IMG/VR virus record: IMGVR_UViG_2698536348_000016
DNA length: 16,246 nucleotides
Source: a virus
Lineage: Duplodnaviria > Heunggongvirae > Uroviricota > Caudoviricetes
Strand: one strand, 5' to 3'
A program made the translations under genes and the position numbers. Shown one piece after another: positions 8,576-16,246 of this stretch (its first letter is position 1; each line of letters starts with the position of its first letter). Below the pieces are notes generated by a model. That model worked only from the letters and a program-made list of their open reading frames with translations, had not been told where the DNA came from and searched no databases.

Positions 8576-9763
8576 TTGCTCACCGATACAAAACTAAGAA
8601 AGTCTCTTGGCAAAAAACGAGACAAAATCGAAGTGCTTTCTGATGCACAAGGGCTGAATGTTCGGTTATCAACTTCCGGCAGTATAACATTTTTTTACCG
8701 CTACCGATGGAATGGCAAGGCTGCACAACTGGCGATCGGCAGTTATCCGTCCATTTCATTGGCTCAGGCCAGGGAGCGTCGCCAGCAGTTTAGAGACTGG
8801 CTCACTGAGGGACTGGATCCCCGTCGTCAGGTTATGCTGGAAAAGCAGAAAAAGTCTCAGGCTATGACCGTTAAAGAAGCATTTGATTACTGGGAGCAAC
8901 ATTATTGTATTCCCGAAGGTCTGAAAAAACTGAAGGTCAACAGGCGCGATTTTAATAACCACATTGCGCCCGTACTAGGAAATGTCATTGTCGAACAGAC
9001 AACAAAAGCTCACTGGCTGAGCCTGTTTGATTCGATGGGACGCCGTGTGGTCACTGGGCAGATGCTGGGCTTAATGCAACGAACTTTCAGGTTTTGTTCA
9101 AACAGGGGGGTGATAAGCATTAATCCGCTTGAAAGCCTGAGGCGTTCAGATGTGGGCATGGCTGCGGCAACCAGAGACAGGAAACTGAGCGATGAAGAGA
9201 TCAAGATTGTCTGGTCGGCTTTGTCTGATATGGGGGAAAGGCAGAAGCTGGTTGTTAAATTTCTTCTTATGACGGGGTGCAGAACCGCAGAGATTAGAAC
9301 AGCAAGATGGGAATGGTTCGATTTTAACGAGAATACATGGACTGTTCCTGCAAGCGAATATAAAACGGGTAAGACCGTCAGAAGAGCGTTGCCTCCGGCG
9401 ATCGTGAAACTGATGCAGGAAGTGAAGAAAACCTCCGTTTCTCAGCATGTTCTTACGCGGGCAAGATATAACGGCCCTGAAGATGATAAGCCACCGCAAC
9501 AACCTCATATCGCTTTGTTTTCTGCTCAGATCATCGCTAAAACGGGGATGAAAACATGGTCCCTTCATGACTTGAGAAGAACGGTGGCAACACGATTATC
9601 CGAGTTAGGTGCGCCACCACATGTGGTTGAAAAGTTATTAGGGCATCATATGTCCGGCGTAATGGCTCGTTATAATCTGCATGATTATCTCGAAGATCAA
9701 AGGCATTGGTTGCAGGTGTGGCAGAATTATCTTGAAGGGTTAGTTGATGCGCCATTAACCTGA
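8576..9763 (+). CDS. int: Tyrosine recombinase/integrase, P4/CP4-57-like with N-terminal arm-binding (DUF4102-type) domain
   Basis: ORF 8480..9763. N-terminal LTDTKLRKSLGKKRDK...GLNVRL...FFYRYRWNGK...SLAQARERR fits the arm-binding domain; catalytic motifs TGCRTAEIR, HDLRRT, LGHH...ARY. Start chosen at TTG 8576 (GAGGG RBS 7 nt upstream, N-terminus then aligns with LTD-type integrase starts); in-frame ATG at 8534 is the alternative. Confidence 0.88.
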   Translation: MLTDTKLRKSLGKKRDKIEVLSDAQGLNVRLSTSGSITFFYRYRWNGKAAQLAIGSYPSISLAQARERRQQFRDWLTEGLDPRRQVMLEKQKKSQAMTVKEAFDYWEQHYCIPEGLKKLKVNRRDFNNHIAPVLGNVIVEQTTKAHWLSLFDSMGRRVVTGQMLGLMQRTFRFCSNRGVISINPLESLRRSDVGMAAATRDRKLSDEEIKIVWSALSDMGERQKLVVKFLLMTGCRTAEIRTARWEWFDFNENTWTVPASEYKTGKTVRRALPPAIVKLMQEVKKTSVSQHVLTRARYNGPEDDKPPQQPHIALFSAQIIAKTGMKTWSLHDLRRTVATRLSELGAPPHVVEKLLGHHMSGVMARYNLHDYLEDQRHWLQVWQNYLEGLVDAPLT

Positions 9764-12494: not shown

Positions 12495-12623
12495 TACTGG
12501 CCCTGGAAGTGGGAGCGAGTCTGCGCCGCGCTGCGGGAGCTGAACAAGCACCGGGATATTGTTCGACAGATTGTCGATTCATCCGGTCGTATTGTGTCGG
12601 AAAAGTGATTGCCGGAGGCGCTT

Positions 12624-13019
12624 ATGGCGAAACCTTTTACACACGAACAGCGGGAAGAACTGAAGGCACGAATTATCGGATTGGTACGCAAAAATGAACG
12701 CATGACGATATCGCAACTGGAGAGAGCGACGGGAGCAGGCTGGCATTCAGTCAGACGTTGCCTTGTGGATGTACTGGCTTGTGGCGATTTATACATGTCC
12801 GGTAAATACGGTGTTTTTGCATCAGAACAGGTGTATCGCGTATGGCGTAAGACACCGGAGAAAACAACTGACCAGACATTGATTCGAAAGTTACCAGACG
12901 GAGAAATTCGCCGCTACGATAGACGCCTGAACATAATCTGTCGCGAGTGCCGGAATAGTGAAGTTATGCAGCGCGTGCTGGCTTTCTATCAGGGGAATTT
13001 TCAGGAGGCGGTACTGTGA
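12624..13019 (+). CDS. Hypothetical protein (131 aa), first gene of the opposite-strand cassette
   Basis: ATG at 12624 with GGAGG RBS 5 nt upstream; MAKPFTHEQREELKARIIGLVRKNERMTISQLERATGAGWHSVRRC...; possible helix-turn-helix-like segment; family unknown. Confidence 0.6.
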   Translation: MAKPFTHEQREELKARIIGLVRKNERMTISQLERATGAGWHSVRRCLVDVLACGDLYMSGKYGVFASEQVYRVWRKTPEKTTDQTLIRKLPDGEIRRYDRRLNIICRECRNSEVMQRVLAFYQGNFQEAVL

Positions 13020-13075
13020 GTAAATTAGCTATCAGGCTTCAATTGTCGCTGGCATTCGCATCAAAGGAGAATGAG

Positions 13076-13660
13076 ATGACCACTTTTACAAAAGAGCAGT
13101 TAATCAGTCATGTTAGTGAAAATGTAAAGGCGATGAAATTTGCAGTAAAACAGACAGCATTCAAAAATTCTCTCGAGGCAATTGAGTTGGATTTAGCACT
13201 GGCCCTTGTTGCTCAGGCTTCGCTGGAAGCAGAGCCCGTGCTTTATATGAATCGATTTACCGGAAAGACATTCTCACTGGAAGAGCAACCCGGTGCTGAT
13301 AAGGAACCGGAAATATACGTGCCGCTATATGCTGCCCCGCCAGACAGCGCCGCCATGCTTCAGGCTGGAAACTTTCGGGAAAAGAAGGGTTCGTCAACCA
13401 ATAATTTTCGGGAAATCTCGGAAACGTCAACCAACCATCCGGTAACTCTGGATGGTTGGATAAGCTGTAGTGAGCGAATGCCGGATGACGGTCAGCACGT
13501 AATTATTTTATGTGATGGCGCATTCGTTCTTTATGCGCAATATCGAGACGGTGAGTTTTTTGATGTAGTCCGTGATGGTGATGAATTTTTCGAAACACAG
13601 AGCCGCAATGTAACCGACTGGATGCCGCTACCAGAACCGCCGCAGGAGGTGCGCCAATGA
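13076..13660 (+). CDS. Hypothetical protein with C-terminal DUF551-like domain
   Basis: ATG at 13076 with AAGGAG RBS 7 nt upstream; C-terminus ...DGWISCSERMPDDGQHVIIL...VTDWMPLPEPP resembles the phage DUF551 motif; internal tandem repeat (NFRE...STN x2) at 13369..13434. Confidence 0.7.
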   Translation: MTTFTKEQLISHVSENVKAMKFAVKQTAFKNSLEAIELDLALALVAQASLEAEPVLYMNRFTGKTFSLEEQPGADKEPEIYVPLYAAPPDSAAMLQAGNFREKKGSSTNNFREISETSTNHPVTLDGWISCSERMPDDGQHVIILCDGAFVLYAQYRDGEFFDVVRDGDEFFETQSRNVTDWMPLPEPPQEVRQ

Positions 13661-13740
13661 ACTGGCCTGAAGCATTTGCAATTACAGGCGTTGCTATGGC
13701 TATCACCTTTTTAGTATATGTTATTTGTCGGTGGGGGTAA
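13657..13740 (+). CDS. Small hydrophobic peptide (27 aa), translationally coupled to the upstream gene
   Basis: ATGA overlap with the stop of the preceding gene; MNWPEAFAITGVAMAITFLVYVICRWG, single predicted TM segment; below the ORF-track length cutoff. Confidence 0.35.
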   Translation: MNWPEAFAITGVAMAITFLVYVICRWG

Positions 13741-13775
13741 AAACGTTCGCCGGGATTAACACCAAAGGAGGGAAT

Positions 13776-13880
13776 ATGTCGGATGATATATCACTGGCAA
13801 TGGAAGGTGCGCTGGCTGTTGTTGCTGTTGTGGGCGTTTACTGCCTGGTTGTGTTTTTGATGGATCGACTAGGGAACTGA
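13776..13880 (+). CDS. Small hydrophobic peptide (34 aa)
   Basis: AAGGAGGG RBS 4 to 5 nt upstream of ATG; MSDDISLAMEGALAVVAVVGVYCLVVFLMDRLGN, single predicted TM segment. Confidence 0.45.
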   Translation: MSDDISLAMEGALAVVAVVGVYCLVVFLMDRLGN

Positions 13881-13890
13881 ATTCATTACG

Positions 13891-13908
13891 ATATGGGAAT
13901 TCCCATAT
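13891..13908. repeat. Perfect 18-bp palindrome ATATGGGAATTCCCATAT
   Basis: Self-complementary 18-mer 11 nt downstream of the peptide stop and just upstream of the putative hok promoter. Confidence 0.6.
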
Positions 13909-13922
13909 CGGGTAAAAACGGT

Positions 13923-13950
13923 TTGCGGTAAAGCGAGAGTTAAGTAGAAT
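13923..13950 (+). promoter_or_regulatory. Putative hok mRNA promoter
   Basis: TTGCGG (-35), 16-nt spacer, TAGAAT (-10); predicted 5' end near 13957 (GGGTGCTTGAGG), which is complementary to the 3' segment 14331..14343. Confidence 0.35.
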
Positions 13951-13994
13951 TGCTGCGGGTGCTTGAGGCTGTCTGCCTCGGGCATGCCACCGTA

Positions 13995-14090
13995 AGGCAG
14001 ACAGAGAAAAGCCCCAGTTAACATTACGCGTCCTGCAAGACGCCTAACATTAATCTGAGGCCAATTTCATGCTAGACACATGTAGGTTAG
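13995..14090 (-). ncRNA. Expected Sok-like antisense RNA region (approximate)
   Basis: Inferred from hok/sok architecture: antisense to the leader and upstream in-frame start; minus strand has TTGCCT, 17 nt, TAACCT promoter-like hexamers near 14113..14085 and hairpin GCGTC ctgcaa GACGC (plus 14027..14042). Boundaries not resolved. Confidence 0.3.
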
Positions 14091-14125
14091 CCTCTTACGC
14101 GCCGAAAGGCAAGGAGAAGCAGGCT

Positions 14126-14281
14126 ATGAAGCAGCAAAAGGCGATGTTAGTCGCCCTGATCGTCATCTGTATTACCGTCGTAGTGACGGCACTGGTAACG
14201 AGGAAAGACCTCTGCGAGGTACGAATCCGAACCGGTCAGACGGAGGTTGCTGTCTTCACAGCTTACGAACCTGAGGAGTAA
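14126..14281 (+). CDS. hok: Hok/Gef-family type I toxin (51 aa)
   Basis: MKQQKAMLVALIVICITVVVTALVTRKDLCEVRIRTGQTEVAVFTAYEPEE, close to HokD/HokC (Gef) as I recall them; AAGGAG RBS 9 nt upstream; ORF track 14069..14281 includes an in-frame upstream ATG. Confidence 0.9.
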   Translation: MKQQKAMLVALIVICITVVVTALVTRKDLCEVRIRTGQTEVAVFTAYEPEE

Positions 14282-14349
14282 GAGACCAGGCGAGGGAGAA
14301 ATCCCTCGCCACCTCTGATGTGTCAGGCATCCTCAACGCACCCGCACTT

Positions 14350-14371
14350 AACCCGCTTCGGCGGGTTTTTT
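14350..14371 (+). terminator. Intrinsic terminator of the hok transcript
   Basis: AACCCGC ttcg GCGGGTT followed by a T6 run; the same 20-mer recurs at 15191..15210. Confidence 0.7.
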
Positions 14372-14490
14372 CACTTACTGTGGTTGTGAATACGATTGGT
14401 ATTAGGCTATGCTAACAACATTAGCCTGACTAATTTTGTATTGACTTGATTTTTGTTAAAGAACAGGACGGAGAAGTAAGGGTACACCCA

Positions 14491-14670
14491 ATGAGCTACG
14501 CACTAAAAAAACACCCGCGATTGACTATTCCCCCTCGCGATAAAAGCGTTGTGGCAGCTCCGCGCCCGGCTATCGATGAAAATTGCACTCATCGTGAGCA
14601 GGTGAAAAATGCTTTCGATTTCGGTTTTTCTCGTTACGAGAAGGCAATGGAAGAACTTTCAAAAGTGTAA
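14491..14670 (+). CDS. Small protein (59 aa), candidate antitoxin partner of the Doc-family toxin
   Basis: ATG at 14491 (ORF track starts at TTG 14446); MSYALKKHPRLTIPPRDKSVVAAPRPAIDENCTHREQVKNAFDFGFSRYEKAMEELSKV; stop 18 nt before the toxin ATG. Not Phd-like by eye, so the role is inferred from position only. Confidence 0.4.
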   Translation: MSYALKKHPRLTIPPRDKSVVAAPRPAIDENCTHREQVKNAFDFGFSRYEKAMEELSKV

Positions 14671-14688
14671 TGATGGGTATTGTGCTCT

Positions 14689-15174
14689 ATGGCTGAGATT
14701 GTTGAAGGAGTGCACTACCTTTCGTTTGATGATCTTACCGAAATTAATCGCCTTTTAATTGAGCTTCAAACACCAGATGAACCTGTTAGTGTGCTGAGTG
14801 TTGATAATTTAAGTTCTTCTCAGTCTCGTCCCAGCATGGTTCGATGGTATGAACAGACTAATGACATGTTTGTACTGGCATCAGTATTGATTGAAAGTCT
14901 GATTCAGAATCATCCATTTGCTAATGCAAACAAACGAACAGCTATGATGGCTGGTTATGTCTTCTTGTTGTTGAATGGCTATGAGTTAACAGCACCAGGC
15001 GATGAAATCGTGGAAATGGCAGAGGGACTGGCCTGCAAAACCTATACTCGAGAAGATCTCGAGAACTGGTTGTGTTATTGGTCTCGTGCGTATGACAGCC
15101 GGGAATTATGTAAAACAGGCGCAACTATTGTTTTGTATGAAACTATCAAGCTTAAAATAGAACAGCAAAACTAA
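14689..15174 (+). CDS. Doc-family (Fic-fold) toxin
   Basis: Contains HPFANANKRTAMMAGYVFLLLNGYEL, matching the Doc motif H-x-F-x-(D/N)-(A/G)-N-K-R and following helix (P1 Doc has HIFNDANKRTALNSALLFLRRNG as I recall). ATG 14689 chosen; TTG 14680 is the alternative. Confidence 0.8.
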   Translation: MAEIVEGVHYLSFDDLTEINRLLIELQTPDEPVSVLSVDNLSSSQSRPSMVRWYEQTNDMFVLASVLIESLIQNHPFANANKRTAMMAGYVFLLLNGYELTAPGDEIVEMAEGLACKTYTREDLENWLCYWSRAYDSRELCKTGATIVLYETIKLKIEQQN

Positions 15175-15188
15175 AGGTGCTTCTAATG

Positions 15189-15210
15189 AAAACCCGCTTC
15201 GGCGGGTTTT
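15189..15210. terminator. Bidirectional intrinsic terminator between convergent doc-like and higA-like genes
   Basis: AAAACCCGC ttcg GCGGGTTTT: perfect hairpin with an A-run upstream and T-run downstream. Confidence 0.7.
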
Positions 15211-15224
15211 GTTGTATTGGAGTA

Positions 15225-15542
15225 TCATGATATTACCTGGATCCCGTTTTTCTCTACGACTGAAAGAAGGCGAAGAGCGGCACCTCCCGGCCGTTTTACA
15301 CCACGTTCCCAGTCTGATATCAGGTTTTTACTGACGTTGAGGTATCTGGCAAAAACAGGTTGAGACAGATGCTCTCGTTCGCGCAGTGCACGGATCCTTT
15401 CCGGAGACATTACCGGCGCTGGCTGGAGACAAGTTTCATCGAATTCTCGCATAGTCTGTTTCGTTACTGCGCCGATATCATGAAGCGATTCCATCATTTC
15501 ATGTACGGATGCAAGCGCATCACTGCGGTAATTTTTACTCAT
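15225..15542 (-). CDS. HigA-like antitoxin (XRE-family HTH)
   Basis: 105-aa ORF MSKNYRSDALASVHEMMESLHDIGAVTKQTMREFDETCLQPAPVMSPERIRALREREHLSQPVFARYLNVSKNLISDWERG...; ATG overlaps the last codons of the upstream toxin frame (CCCAATGAGTAA), toxin-first order typical of higBA. Confidence 0.85.
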   Translation of the reverse strand: MSKNYRSDALASVHEMMESLHDIGAVTKQTMREFDETCLQPAPVMSPERIRALREREHLSQPVFARYLNVSKNLISDWERGVKRPGGAALRLLSVVEKNGIQVIS

Positions 15543-15905
15543 TGGGTACCTCCGTAAACTGACCCTGTAGAATCAGTTGTGCCAGTTGTTCATCTGTTAG
15601 ATTGAGTACGTGAGGAGCCGCCTTCCGAAATGCACTTTCCGCAGTAGCGGTTATATTTTCACGTTCATTTTTTGCGTATGCATATACGAAAAAGGCCCTT
15701 GTGCCGACGCGATAGAAAATGATTGTGCGATAACCGCCAGATTTGCCGCCACCGACTCGTGGCAGACGTTGCTTGATAACGCCGTTACCCAGGTTTGCTG
15801 AGATAAGCCCGTTATCAGCCTGTTTAACAATTTCGCGCAGTGATTGGTCGGATATTTTGTTTTGCGTGCAAATCGCTCAAACCAGGCGTTTTTAAAAATG
15901 CGCAT
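15535..15905 (-). pseudogene. HigB/Gp49-like RelE-superfamily toxin, disrupted by a frameshift in an A-run
   Basis: ATG at 15905 gives MRIFKNAWFERFARK, then the frame derails to the unrelated tail of ORF 15651..15968; the -1 frame continues NKISDQSLREIVKQADNGLISANLGNGVIKQRLPRVGGGKSGGYRTIIFYRVGTRAFFVYAYAKNEREN...QFTEVPNE to a stop at 15535 but has no start codon of its own. Break maps to the A4 run at plus 15860..15863. Confidence 0.75.
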
Positions 15906-15926
15906 TTTTTGTTCCGTTATTAATGT

Positions 15927-15941
15927 ATAACACATAGTGTT
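15927..15941 (-). promoter_or_regulatory. Candidate operator palindrome upstream of the higB-like gene
   Basis: TAACAC ata GTGTTA perfect 6-bp inverted repeat about 22 to 36 nt upstream of the toxin ATG. Confidence 0.4.
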
Positions 15942-15972
15942 ACATTGCGTAGGGATCTGCAATGCCATCAGT

Positions 15973-16002
15973 TTGACAACGTCGCGTGTTCGGGGCTATA
16001 TT
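15973..16002 (+). promoter_or_regulatory. Near-consensus sigma70-type promoter
   Basis: TTGACA (15973..15978), 18-nt spacer, TATATT (15997..16002); divergent from the higB-like promoter region. Confidence 0.5.
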
Positions 16003-16007
16003 CCTCA

Positions 16008-16083
16008 CGCGCCAGCAAAACCTGGCGTCGGGATTAGCACCCCGGATATCGAAACGGTGCATAACCGCGCTGGCGGTTTTTTT
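16008..16083 (+). ncRNA. Candidate small RNA or terminated leader (about 76 nt)
   Basis: Lies between the promoter above and an intrinsic terminator AACCGC gctg GCGGTT plus T7 (16063..16083); contains a further hairpin CGCCAG caaaac CTGGCG; the only ORF across it is a GTG-started frame that reads through the terminator. Confidence 0.4.
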
Positions 16084-16246
16084 ATGCGCTAAGCACAGTC
16101 ACATTCGCGATTTATGGCGGGCTGTGTGGGGGAGCCGAATGAGGTGTACTGACAATAGCGGACACTACCATTTGTTCTTTTTTTAAGCAGCTATCTGATG
16201 ATATTTTTCCCTGAAGGCTGCCGGGGAGATATTCCCCAGACGAGAG

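What the first reader, a model, noticed from the sequence alone, without database searches (positions are those of the whole stretch)
15973..16083. Candidate small RNA: near-consensus promoter, two hairpins and an intrinsic terminator
TTGACA, 18 nt, TATATT is one of the best promoter matches in the window and fires away from the higB-like promoter. About 76 nt downstream is a canonical terminator (6-bp GC stem plus T7). The region between holds the hairpin CGCCAG caaaac CTGGCG, and the 5' segment GCGCCAGC can alternatively pair with GCTGGCG in the terminator, which would allow attenuation. It could be a prophage sRNA, an antisense regulator or an antitermination-type leader.
Basis: seen in the sequence. 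Interest (0 to 1): 0.5.

Follow-up and report, generated by a model that had tools for sequence, protein, structure and literature searches.

The report
IsrK-type prophage small RNA gene
The candidate is a real but already catalogued prophage small RNA, an IsrK-family member that forms the first part of a phage P1-style RNA switch controlling an antirepressor gene, and in this genome an IS600 insertion has cut the switch just downstream.

Summary
The promoter (TTGACA-18-TATATT, 11 of 12), two hairpins and a terminator with T7 sit at the stated coordinates.

It is not a new RNA. Rfam places 16009-16083 in isrK (74.3 bits, cut-off 50) and 15996-16048 in c4-a1b1 (47.4, cut-off 46.7).

In an intact E. 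coli prophage that is 99.8% identical up to 16139, and in 13 other loci read (Stx phages, a P22-like phage, APSE-8, Gifsy-1, P1), the order is always the same: promoter, IsrK/a1b1, about 25 nt, C4 antisense RNA, about 50-nt leader, then an ORF6N/Ant/Bro-N or, in P1, icd-ant gene.

Two IsrK segments recur in the leader at the ribosome-binding site and are complementary to C4:
- a1, UUAGCAC, 16034-16040
- b1, UCGAAACG, 16049-16056

The three copies co-vary across 11 distinct loci (0-1 of 100,000 permutations reach the observed match).

The likely mechanism is that C4 blocks antirepressor translation, and terminated IsrK mimics the target and relieves the block, as shown for Gifsy-1.

In this window an IS600 end starts at 16140. 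It removes C4 after 30 of 85 nt and detaches any downstream gene.

Verdict: already known, low interest.

The parts
15973..15978 (+). -35 hexamer TTGACA of the IsrK-type promoter
   Evidence: The position is conserved in 15 of 15 sequences. These include P1's annotated sigma-70 promoter P1c4 (former P51b) and the region upstream of Gifsy-1 isrK, where promoter activity was shown (PMC4825925).
15997..16002 (+). -10 hexamer TATATT, 18-nt spacer
   Evidence: It lies within the conserved block GGGGCTATATTCC and ends 6 nt before position 1 of the Rfam isrK model.
16009..16083 (+). IsrK-family small RNA, 75 nt. Inferred transcription start about 16009; 3' end in the T-run.
   Evidence: Rfam RF01394 isrK, 74.3 bits against a gathering score of 50, E = 1.2e-14, full model 1-77. 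RF03163 c4-a1b1 covers 15996-16048 at 47.4 bits against 46.7. The start is inferred from the Gifsy-1 numbering: A107 falls on the orf45 ATG only if +1 is model position 1.
16009..16028 (+). Hairpin 1: GCGCCAG / CAAAAC / CUGGCGU
   Evidence: Present in the minimum-free-energy and centroid folds. Covariation: 5 of 7 pairs change on both sides across 12 homologues.
16029..16044 (+). Hairpin 2: CGGG / AUUAGCAC / CCCG, presenting site a1 in its loop
   Evidence: 100% of cells paired; stem nearly invariant.
16034..16040 (+). Site a1 (UUAGCAC). It has the same sequence as a2 in the leader of the intact locus and is complementary to a' (GUGCUAA) of the cognate C4.
   Evidence: It is positionally equivalent to P1's annotated a1 and to Gifsy-1 G28/G31, whose pairing with C162/C159 was tested by mutation.
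16049..16056 (+). Site b1 (UCGAAACG). It has the same sequence as b2 next to the Shine-Dalgarno of the ORF6N gene in the intact locus and is complementary to b' (UGUUUCGA) in the C4 loop.
   Evidence: Eleven different b sequences in 11 loci all keep the complementarity.
16063..16083 (+). Intrinsic terminator: AACCGC-GCUG-GCGGUU, with a run of seven U that includes the last two stem bases
   Evidence: Every homologue has a 5-10 bp (mostly 5-7 bp) G+C-rich stem followed by U6-7, although the stem sequences differ.
16110..16139 (+). 5' stump of the C4 antisense RNA gene (first 30 of 85 nt). The a' and b' sites are missing.
   Evidence: This stretch lies within the 99.8%-identical collinear block and is 100% identical to L001 over the part compared. 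It corresponds to L001 9261-9290, and Rfam C4 RF01695 covers L001 9261-9345 at 75.1 bits.
16140..16246 (-). End of an IS600 (IS3 family) copy, with the transposase reading on the minus strand. It interrupts C4 and runs off the window.
   Evidence: Homology to the intact prophage stops at 16139. 16140-16246 matches 'IS3-like element IS600 family transposase' loci at 99.1% over 100% of its length.

Best explanation
Bases 15973-16083 are the promoter and gene of an IsrK-family small RNA of a lambdoid prophage. This RNA is also the 'a1b1' element of a phage-P1-type immI module (C4 antisense RNA plus antirepressor).

How the intact module is arranged:
- One promoter drives the whole unit.
- Most transcripts stop at the intrinsic terminator and give a 75-nt RNA.
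- Some transcripts read through into the C4 RNA, a roughly 50-nt leader and an ORF6N/P22-antirepressor-type gene.

How it most likely works:
- C4 carries two exposed segments, b' in a hairpin loop and a' just 3' of it. They pair with b2 and a2 in the leader.
- b2 abuts the Shine-Dalgarno sequence, so C4 keeps the antirepressor-like gene untranslated. This is shown for P1 and inferred here.
- The short IsrK RNA carries the same two segments, a1 and b1, set close together. With C4 it can form an almost continuous helix of about 30 bp.
- IsrK therefore acts as a target mimic. It competes with the leader for C4 and turns translation on. Activation in trans, and the a1:a' pairing, were shown by mutation for Gifsy-1 IsrK. 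That the same happens here is an inference.

State in this window:
- The promoter, sRNA and terminator are intact.
- An IS600 insertion at 16140 has removed a' and b' of C4 and cut the promoter off from whatever lay downstream.
- The sRNA is therefore most likely an orphan remnant. It is probably still transcribed but has no cognate partner within the window.
For: 1. Family membership. Rfam isrK scores 74.3 bits (cut-off 50) and c4-a1b1 47.4 bits (cut-off 46.7).

2. Intact counterpart. The E. coli FORC_069 prophage is collinear with the window and 99.8% identical over 12506-16139. There the IsrK element is followed by Rfam C4 (75.1 bits) and a gene with ORF6N and P22_AR_C domains.

3. Conserved architecture. 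The same promoter-IsrK/a1b1-C4-antirepressor order occurs at 14 of 14 module copies in 13 loci: the two copies in L001 plus 12 further phage loci. They include Stx phages, the P22-like phage ZX5, APSE-8, Gifsy-1 and P1.

4. Three-way covariation across 11 distinct modules.
- Site a takes 6 different heptamers. Each is identical in IsrK and in the leader, and each has 7 of 7 complementarity to a'.
- Site b takes 11 different sequences. Complementarity to b' is 6-9 nt in IsrK and 6-12 nt in the leader, with one exception.
- Permuting which loci are treated as cognate reaches the observed totals in 0-1 of 100,000 trials.

5. Agreement with experiment and annotation.
- P1's GenBank annotation of a1, b1, c4, a2 and b2 falls on exactly these positions.
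- Gifsy-1 mutants G28A/G31A and C162U/C159U map onto a1 and a' (PMC4825925).

6. Folding. The 261-nt read-through RNA of the intact locus folds far better than shuffles (z = -5.1), and its minimum-energy structure pairs the middle of IsrK with C4.

7. The break. Homology ends at 16139 and an IS600 end follows. No other a'/b' or a2/b2 site exists in the window.
Against: - Nothing here shows that the RNA is expressed. Promoter and terminator are sequence-level calls.
- The 75-nt RNA alone does not fold better than shuffles (z = -1.5).
- The decoy step combines two literatures, P1 c4 repression and Gifsy-1 IsrK activation. I found no paper connecting them. PMC4825925 explains activation through alternative structures and translation of 'orf45', not through titration of a C4 RNA.
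- In the intact relative the upstream ORF ends 39 nt before the ORF6N start. The stop/start overlap that supports coupling in Gifsy-1 is therefore absent.
- Whole-region duplex energies separate cognate from non-cognate pairs only partly. The cognate pair is best in its row in 9 of 11 cases and best in its column in 5 of 11.
- What lies beyond IS600 in the source genome is unknown.
Confidence: 0.85

Rival explanations
1. One reading: a cis-acting attenuator. The 5' arm of hairpin 1 (CGCCAGC) pairs with the terminator (GCUGGCG) and forms an antiterminator structure that decides whether transcription proceeds. No trans-acting RNA is involved.
For: The 7-nt complementarity exists in this sequence. 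Runs of 6-7 nt are also found in several close relatives and in P1. Read-through of the terminator does occur in Gifsy-1 (PMC4825925).
Against: - In the relatives the complementary run involves different arms of hairpin 1.
- It drops to 4-5 nt, roughly what chance gives, in exactly those homologues where hairpin 1 has changed by compensatory substitutions (L007, L008/L009, L010). The terminator does not co-vary with hairpin 1.
- Both the minimum-energy and centroid folds keep hairpin 1 and the terminator as separate hairpins.
Confidence: 0.05
2. A trans-acting, Hfq-dependent sRNA whose main targets are host or other-prophage mRNAs. On this view its link to the C4/antirepressor module is incidental, or it now acts on a paralogous module elsewhere in the genome.
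For: - The Rfam family is named 'isrK Hfq binding RNA'.
- The RNA has a Rho-independent terminator with a U-run, which is typical of Hfq-binding sRNAs.
- The gene survives intact next to a destroyed partner.
- E. coli genomes carry up to 5 such modules each. L001 has two modules with different specificities, so cross-talk is conceivable. L011 shares this a site, though not the b site.
Against: - The only segments that vary yet stay matched across loci are a1 and b1, and they track the adjacent C4 rather than any fixed host target.
- No second complementary site exists in the 16-kb window.
- Host targets cannot be searched because the genome is not available.
Confidence: 0.1
3. A chance juxtaposition of promoter-like and terminator-like sequences, or a short protein-coding ORF (15937-16092, 51 aa; or 15986-16186, 66 aa), with no RNA function.
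For: Generic promoter and terminator matches are not enriched in this region relative to shuffles. ORFs of 51 and 66 aa overlap the region.
Against: - The covariance-model match has E = 1.2e-14.
- The structure is conserved and hairpin 1 shows compensatory changes.
- The promoter keeps its position in 15 of 15 sequences.
- The pattern of variation consists of paired substitutions and co-varying a and b sites, which indicates selection on RNA pairing rather than on a reading frame.
Confidence: 0.01

Closest known systems
IsrK of Salmonella prophage Gifsy-1 (Rfam RF01394; Padalon-Brauch 2008, PMC2330248; Hershko-Shalev 2016, PMC4825925)
   Same: - The same covariance-model family, at 74.3 bits here and 79.3 bits for Gifsy-1.
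- The same TTGACA-18-TATATT promoter at the same distance from the RNA.
- Three hairpins, including the terminator.
- In the intact relative, the same downstream arrangement: a C4-like element (called 'orf45'/STnc1160 in the paper) followed by an ORF6N-domain antirepressor-like gene.
- The middle of IsrK is complementary to about 30 nt of the downstream element.
   Different: - The specificity sites differ: a1 is UUAGCAC here and UUGGCGU in Gifsy-1; b1 is UCGAAACG here and UCACCG in Gifsy-1.
- In the intact relative the upstream ORF inside C4 is 31 codons long and ends 39 nt before the gene. In Gifsy-1 it is 45 codons and overlaps the start as AUGA.
- The module lies in the nin region next to a RelE/HigA-type pair, not downstream of Q.
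- In this window the downstream half is cut off by IS600.
The immI region of phages P1 and P7: a1/b1, c4 antisense RNA, a2/b2, icd-ant (Citron and Schuster 1990, cited from memory and via PMC12197685; Rfam RF01695 C4 and RF03163 c4-a1b1, clan CL00128)
   Same: - The same order of elements and the same logic. The a and b sequences occur twice in the sense orientation and once as complements in a roughly 80-nt structured RNA, all transcribed from one promoter, with b2 at the Shine-Dalgarno.
- The c4-a1b1 model scores above its cut-off here.
- P1's a1b1 region also ends in a hairpin followed by a U-run.
   Different: - The P1 element does not reach the isrK gathering score, so only c4-a1b1 is reported for it.
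- The regulated gene in P1 is icd-ant rather than an ORF6N/P22_AR_C gene.
- In P1 an extra C1-controlled promoter (P2c4, with operator Oc4) lies upstream. I looked for no equivalent here.
- In P1 the published role is repression by C4. To my knowledge a trans-activating role for a1b1 has not been described there.
sar RNA and ant of phage P22 (immI of P22)
   Same: A small RNA controls translation of an antirepressor in a temperate enterobacterial phage (summarised in PMC12197685).
   Different: sar is a true cis-antisense RNA transcribed from the opposite strand across the ant ribosome-binding site. Here every element lies on one strand, and pairing is between separate segments of the same or sister transcripts. 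Nothing in the window matched a sar-like arrangement.

Membership tests
IsrK (Rfam RF01394) | Covariance-model score at or above the curated gathering score, over the full model | tested here: met
   74.3 bits against 50, model positions 1-77 of 77, E = 1.2e-14.
IsrK (Rfam RF01394) | Two 5' hairpins plus a Rho-independent terminator, supported by covariation | tested here: met
   Fold. Hairpin 1 has 5 of 7 pairs with changes on both sides, 97.7% of cells are paired, and 0 of 500 shuffles reach this. A terminator is present in all 15 sequences.
IsrK (Rfam RF01394) | Own sigma-70 promoter immediately upstream | tested here: met
   Sequence level only. The match is 11 of 12 and its position is conserved in 15 of 15 sequences, including Gifsy-1, where promoter activity was shown (PMC4825925 Table 1A).
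IsrK (Rfam RF01394) | Located upstream of an 'orf45'/STnc1160-type element and an antirepressor-like gene, with which it forms a read-through transcript | tested here: inconclusive
   Met in the intact counterpart L001 (C4 at 9261-9345, ORF6N gene at 9399). In the window only 30 nt of the downstream element remain before IS600.
IsrK (Rfam RF01394) | Accumulates as a short RNA; binds Hfq | not testable with these tools
   No expression or binding data are available for this sequence.
P1-type immI module (c4-a1b1 + C4 + a2b2 + antirepressor; Rfam clan CL00128) | The a1/b1 element matches RF03163 at or above the gathering score | tested here: met
   47.4 bits against 46.7 at 15996-16048. The margin is narrow. 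P1 itself scores 51.0.
P1-type immI module (c4-a1b1 + C4 + a2b2 + antirepressor; Rfam clan CL00128) | A C4 antisense RNA gene downstream on the same strand | tested here: not met
   There is no C4 hit in the window. Only the first 30 of 85 nt are present, at 16110-16139, and the rest is replaced by IS600. The feature is met in the uninterrupted allele (75.1 bits), so the window holds a disrupted module.
P1-type immI module (c4-a1b1 + C4 + a2b2 + antirepressor; Rfam clan CL00128) | a1 and b1 are complementary to a' and b' of the cognate C4 and identical to a2 and b2 at the ribosome-binding site of the regulated gene | tested here: met
   Tested on the intact allele, which has an identical IsrK. 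a: UUAGCAC against GUGCUAA, 7 of 7. b: UCGAAACG against UGUUUCGA, 8 of 8. Both recur in the leader, with b2 2 nt before the Shine-Dalgarno GAGG. Covariation across 11 loci is.
P1-type immI module (c4-a1b1 + C4 + a2b2 + antirepressor; Rfam clan CL00128) | The regulated gene encodes an antirepressor | tested here: inconclusive
   In the intact allele the gene has ORF6N and P22_AR_C (P22 antirepressor C-terminal) domains, and homologous loci are annotated Ant, antirepressor or Bro-N. Antirepressor activity is untested, and the gene is not in the window.
P1-type immI module (c4-a1b1 + C4 + a2b2 + antirepressor; Rfam clan CL00128) | C4 is released from the precursor by RNase P | not testable with these tools
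   Known for P1 from my own recollection of the literature. It cannot be tested here.

The most novel reading that the evidence does not exclude
IsrK and the P1 'a1b1' element are the same thing, and Gifsy-1 'orf45'/STnc1160 is a C4 RNA. All these phages (P1, lambdoid and Stx phages, P22-like phages, APSE) would then share one three-site RNA switch. The short terminated RNA is a programmable decoy that titrates the C4 repressor. The a and b sequences act as an immunity 'address' that differs from phage to phage. I found no paper making this link: PMC4825925 never mentions c4, and only one held paper contains both terms. In this window the switch has lost C4 to IS600. That leaves an orphan decoy which could still derepress any co-resident prophage using the same a/b address.
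Probability: 0.45. Interest if true: 0.4.

Novelty: already known. Interest (0 to 1): 0.15.

Why it matters
For this window it matters little. The RNA belongs to a curated family whose members have been characterised experimentally, and the local copy sits in a broken module.

Three points are useful more widely.
- The module is common. It occurs in 1,478 of 5,426 complete E. coli genomes, with up to five copies per genome, and in most Stx-converting phages. In the RefSeq and GenBank records I looked at it is usually not annotated (APSE-8 and P1 do annotate it).
- It sits in front of antirepressor-type genes, which can trigger prophage induction. Its a/b 'address' therefore probably decides which co-resident prophages can cross-activate one another, and that is relevant to Shiga-toxin phage induction.
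- The comparison suggests that two separately described systems, P1 c4 and Gifsy-1 IsrK, are one mechanism.

Tried and rejected
- Fold energy of the 75-nt RNA alone: z = -1.5, not informative. I relied on covariation instead.
- Whole-region RNAduplex matrices (IsrK middle against C4, leader against C4). Cognate pairs are stronger on average (-34.1 against -24.7 and -29.8 against -23.8 kcal/mol), but conserved flanks make them poor discriminators. The cognate pair is best in its row in 9 of 11 and 5 of 11 cases. I replaced them with site-specific complementarity and a permutation test.
- Search of GTDB species-representative genomes for the exact C4/IS600 junction (36-mer): no match. No complete E. 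coli genome carries the junction either. The source genome and the sequence beyond IS600 remain unknown. I ran no further search on this.
- The MAFFT alignment of the terminator is out of register between loci. I did not count terminator pairs on it and folded each terminator separately.
- 'orf45' as a conserved small protein. The ATG is conserved, but the ORF runs from 14 codons to one still open after 58 codons, with different stops and unrelated C-terminal sequences. The conservation is therefore that of the C4 RNA.
- Literature searches for an explicit IsrK/c4 link or for a name for this RNA in EHEC. I found only lists of Rfam hits (PMC5331693) and the APSE annotation (bioRxiv 10.1101/2020.03.17.996009), which notes both RNAs but does not connect them.

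Full report
**1. The observation**

- Promoter: TTGACA (15973-15978), 18 nt, TATATT (15997-16002). It matches 11 of 12 consensus positions and is the only match of that quality in 14500-16246.
- Hairpin 1: GCGCCAG-CAAAAC-CUGGCGU, 16009-16028.
- Hairpin 2: CGGG-AUUAGCAC-CCCG, 16029-16044.
- Terminator: AACCGC-GCUG-GCGGUU with seven T's, 16063-16083.

Taken alone these are weak evidence. The generic scans find no more promoter-like or terminator-like sites than shuffled sequence gives. The 75-nt RNA folds only 1.5 sd better than shuffles.

**2. Identification**

A scan of the window against Rfam gives two overlapping matches above the curated cut-offs.
- isrK (RF01394) at 16009-16083: 74.3 bits against a gathering score of 50, E = 1.2e-14, full-length.
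- c4-a1b1 (RF03163, 'a1, b1 targets of C4 antisense RNA') at 15996-16048: 47.4 bits against 46.7.

The candidate is therefore a member of a known sRNA family, first found in the Gifsy-1 prophage of Salmonella (PMC2330248, PMC4825925).

**3. Context and the intact allele**

The window is collinear with a lambdoid prophage of E. coli FORC_069 (locus L001). Identity is 99.8% over 12506-16139, and the similarity ends abruptly at 16139.

In L001 the IsrK element (9160-9234) is followed by these features:
- 26 nt later, a full Rfam C4 antisense RNA (9261-9345, 75.1 bits against 45);
- 53 nt after that, a gene with ORF6N and P22-antirepressor C-terminal domains.

A second IsrK+C4 pair lies 1.6 kb downstream in L001, in front of a gene annotated 'phage antirepressor Ant'.

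In the window, the sequence from 16140 to the end matches the end of IS600, an IS3-family element, at 99.1%. C4 would span 16110-16194. The insertion therefore leaves only its first 30 nt and removes everything downstream of it. The junction is absent from 5,426 complete E. coli genomes and from the GTDB representative genomes, so I cannot see the far side of the IS.

**4. Conservation of the architecture**

I fetched twelve further loci:
- several Stx phages;
- PhiR12_5;
- IdasGreatGrand;
- the P22-like phage ZX5;
- TL-2011b;
- Hamiltonella phage APSE-8;
- a phage deposited as Actinobacillus pPE4;
- Gifsy-1;
- P1.

All have IsrK (in P1, c4-a1b1 only), then C4 about 25 nt later, then a gene annotated Ant, antirepressor, Bro-N or, in P1, icd-ant.

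The promoter is positionally conserved in 15 of 15 sequences. The -35 is TTGACN or TTTACA, the spacer is 17-18 nt, and the -10 is TATATT, TATAGT or CATAGT, ending 6 nt (8 nt in one) before the RNA model. It coincides with P1's annotated promoter P1c4 (former P51b) and with the Gifsy-1 isrK promoter region.

Hairpin 1 co-varies: 5 of 7 pairs change on both sides, 97.7% of cells are paired, 0 of 500 shuffles reach this, and slid controls give 29-49% paired. Every locus has its own G+C-rich terminator stem followed by a U-run.

**5. The functional sites**

P1's GenBank record marks a1 and b1 upstream of c4, and a2 and b2 in the icd leader. Aligning all loci on these positions shows the following.

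- Site a: the loop of hairpin 2, here UUAGCAC at 16034-16040. It takes six different heptamer sequences among 11 distinct modules.
- Site b: the linker before the terminator, here UCGAAACG at 16049-16056. It takes eleven different sequences.

In every module the IsrK copy is repeated in the leader and is complementary to C4. There, b' lies in the loop of a CCGG/CCGG hairpin and a' lies just 3' of that hairpin.
- Complementarity at site a is 7 of 7 in all modules.
- At site b it is 6-9 nt for IsrK and 6-12 nt for the leader. IdasGreatGrand is the one exception, with no convincing b2.

Re-assigning partners at random among loci reaches the observed totals in 0-1 of 100,000 permutations, for each of the four comparisons.

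In the intact allele b2 (UCGAAACG) ends 2 nt before the Shine-Dalgarno GAGG of the ORF6N gene. In P1, b2 overlaps the icd Shine-Dalgarno.

**6. Link to the experiments**

With the Gifsy-1 transcript numbered from position 1 of the Rfam model, A107 falls on the ATG of 'orf45', as the paper states. This fixes the transcription start, and hence about 16009 in the window.

The paper's G28 and G31 lie in a1 (UUGGCGU). Its C162 and C159 lie in a' (ACGCCAA) of what Rfam calls C4, at 69 bits. The a1:a' pairing has therefore been tested by mutation.
- G28A and G31A abolish trans-activation.
- C159U and C162U derepress anrP translation from about 4 to 484-926 Miller units (PMC4825925, Table 1).
- The roughly 80-nt processed species STnc1160/orf45' reported there corresponds to C4.

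That paper does not mention c4, P1 or RNase P.

The 'orf45' reading frame is not conserved. It runs from 14 codons to a frame still open after 58 codons, with different stops. It overlaps the downstream start only in Gifsy-1. This fits a structured RNA rather than a conserved peptide.

**7. Mechanism**

Shown elsewhere:
- In P1, C4 represses icd/ant by pairing with a2 and b2 (annotation; summary in PMC12197685).
- In Gifsy-1, part of the transcripts read through the IsrK terminator, the long RNA is translationally silent, and short IsrK supplied in trans activates it 100-fold or more through the pairing described above (PMC4825925).

Inferred here:
- The two descriptions are halves of one switch. 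C4 masks the ribosome-binding site, and the short RNA, carrying a1 and b1 only 8 nt apart, is a higher-affinity mimic of the target that titrates C4.
- Predicted duplexes support this. IsrK with C4 gives -34.3 kcal/mol and the leader with C4 gives -25.2 kcal/mol in the intact allele. The means over 11 loci are -34.1 and -29.8.
- The read-through RNA folds with z = -5.1, and its minimum-energy structure pairs the middle of IsrK with C4.

For this window the consequence is simple. The sRNA gene is intact, but its partner and its regulated gene are gone from their place. No other matching site exists in the 16 kb. The most likely state is an orphan remnant in a decaying prophage. Read-through transcripts would run into IS600 antisense to its transposase gene; that last point is speculation.

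**8.

The complementarity CGCCAGC/GCUGGCG is real here. In relatives it involves other arms of hairpin 1. It falls to 4-5 nt in the loci where hairpin 1 has changed by compensatory substitution, so it is not maintained by selection. I reject it as the mechanism.

**9. Novelty and score**

- The family, its promoter, its read-through and its partner are all described. EHEC genomes were already known to hold Rfam isrK and C4 hits (PMC5331693), and APSE phages have both annotated (bioRxiv 10.1101/2020.03.17.996009).
- The module is very common: 1,478 of 5,426 complete E. coli genomes, up to five places per genome, and 217-253 phage records.
- Verdict: already known, with low interest.
- The one point a specialist might find worthwhile is the apparent identity of the IsrK system with the P1 c4 system, together with the three-way co-varying 'address'. 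I could not find this stated in the searchable literature.

Noticed in passing
window 16140-16246: An IS600 (IS3-family) end, with the transposase on the minus strand, is inserted inside the C4 antisense RNA gene. The junction is absent from 5,426 complete E. coli genomes and from the GTDB representative genomes. IS600 is typical of Shigella by my recollection, so the window may come from a Shigella-type genome.
   Followed up: partly
window 15535-15905 (-): The RelE/HigB-like toxin gene looks frameshifted. The Pfam RelE match starts at profile position 15, in the frame ending at 15535. The expected N-terminus MRIFKNAWFERFARK is in another frame starting at 15905, near an A-rich run at about 15860-15875. 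The 100%-identical overlap with FORC_069 (15850-15873) covers the start of a gene that RefSeq annotates there from the internal position only, so the same frameshift probably applies.
   Followed up: partly
window 13957-14131 (+) and ORF 14069-14281: A hok/sok type I toxin-antitoxin locus (Rfam sok, 116.9 bits), annotated hokD in the FORC_069 counterpart. Together with the Doc-family toxin ORF at 14680-15174 and the RelE/HTH pair at 15225-15905, three toxin-antitoxin-type loci are packed into 2 kb of the nin region just upstream of the sRNA.
   Followed up: no
L013 (Gifsy-1) 34131-34214 (-) and 34277-34329 (-): Rfam calls the published 'orf45'/STnc1160 region a C4 antisense RNA (69 bits) and the 5' half of IsrK a c4-a1b1 element (48.1 bits). 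The Gifsy-1 paper (PMC4825925) never mentions c4. The 'orf45' frame is not conserved among 14 loci.
   Followed up: yes
L001 10732-10930 (+): The same prophage carries a second IsrK+C4 pair with a different address (a = UUGGCGU, b = GAGACCG), in front of a second ORF6N/P22_AR_C 'Ant' gene. One phage therefore holds two antirepressor switches of different specificity.
   Followed up: partly
L001 7441-7522 (+), equivalent to window about 14290-14371: A sub-threshold isrK-like match (31.2 bits against 50) just downstream of hok. It is probably only a terminator hairpin.
   Followed up: no
L014 (P1) about 931-1012: P1's a1b1 region also ends in a hairpin followed by a U-run (ACCGCAG...UUGCGGUAUUUUU). 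It has IsrK-like anatomy although it does not reach the isrK gathering score.
   Followed up: partly
L011 (PP818812.1, 'Actinobacillus phage vB_Apl-pPE4') 906-1160: This record, deposited as an Actinobacillus phage, carries an IsrK/C4 module 84% identical to the E. coli one, with the same a site as the window but a different b site. The closeness to coliphage sequence is odd for a Pasteurellaceae phage.
   Followed up: no
L007 (phage IdasGreatGrand) leader 1104-1150: This is the only locus with no convincing b2 site in the leader (4 nt of complementarity), although a2, b1 and b' are intact.
   Followed up: no
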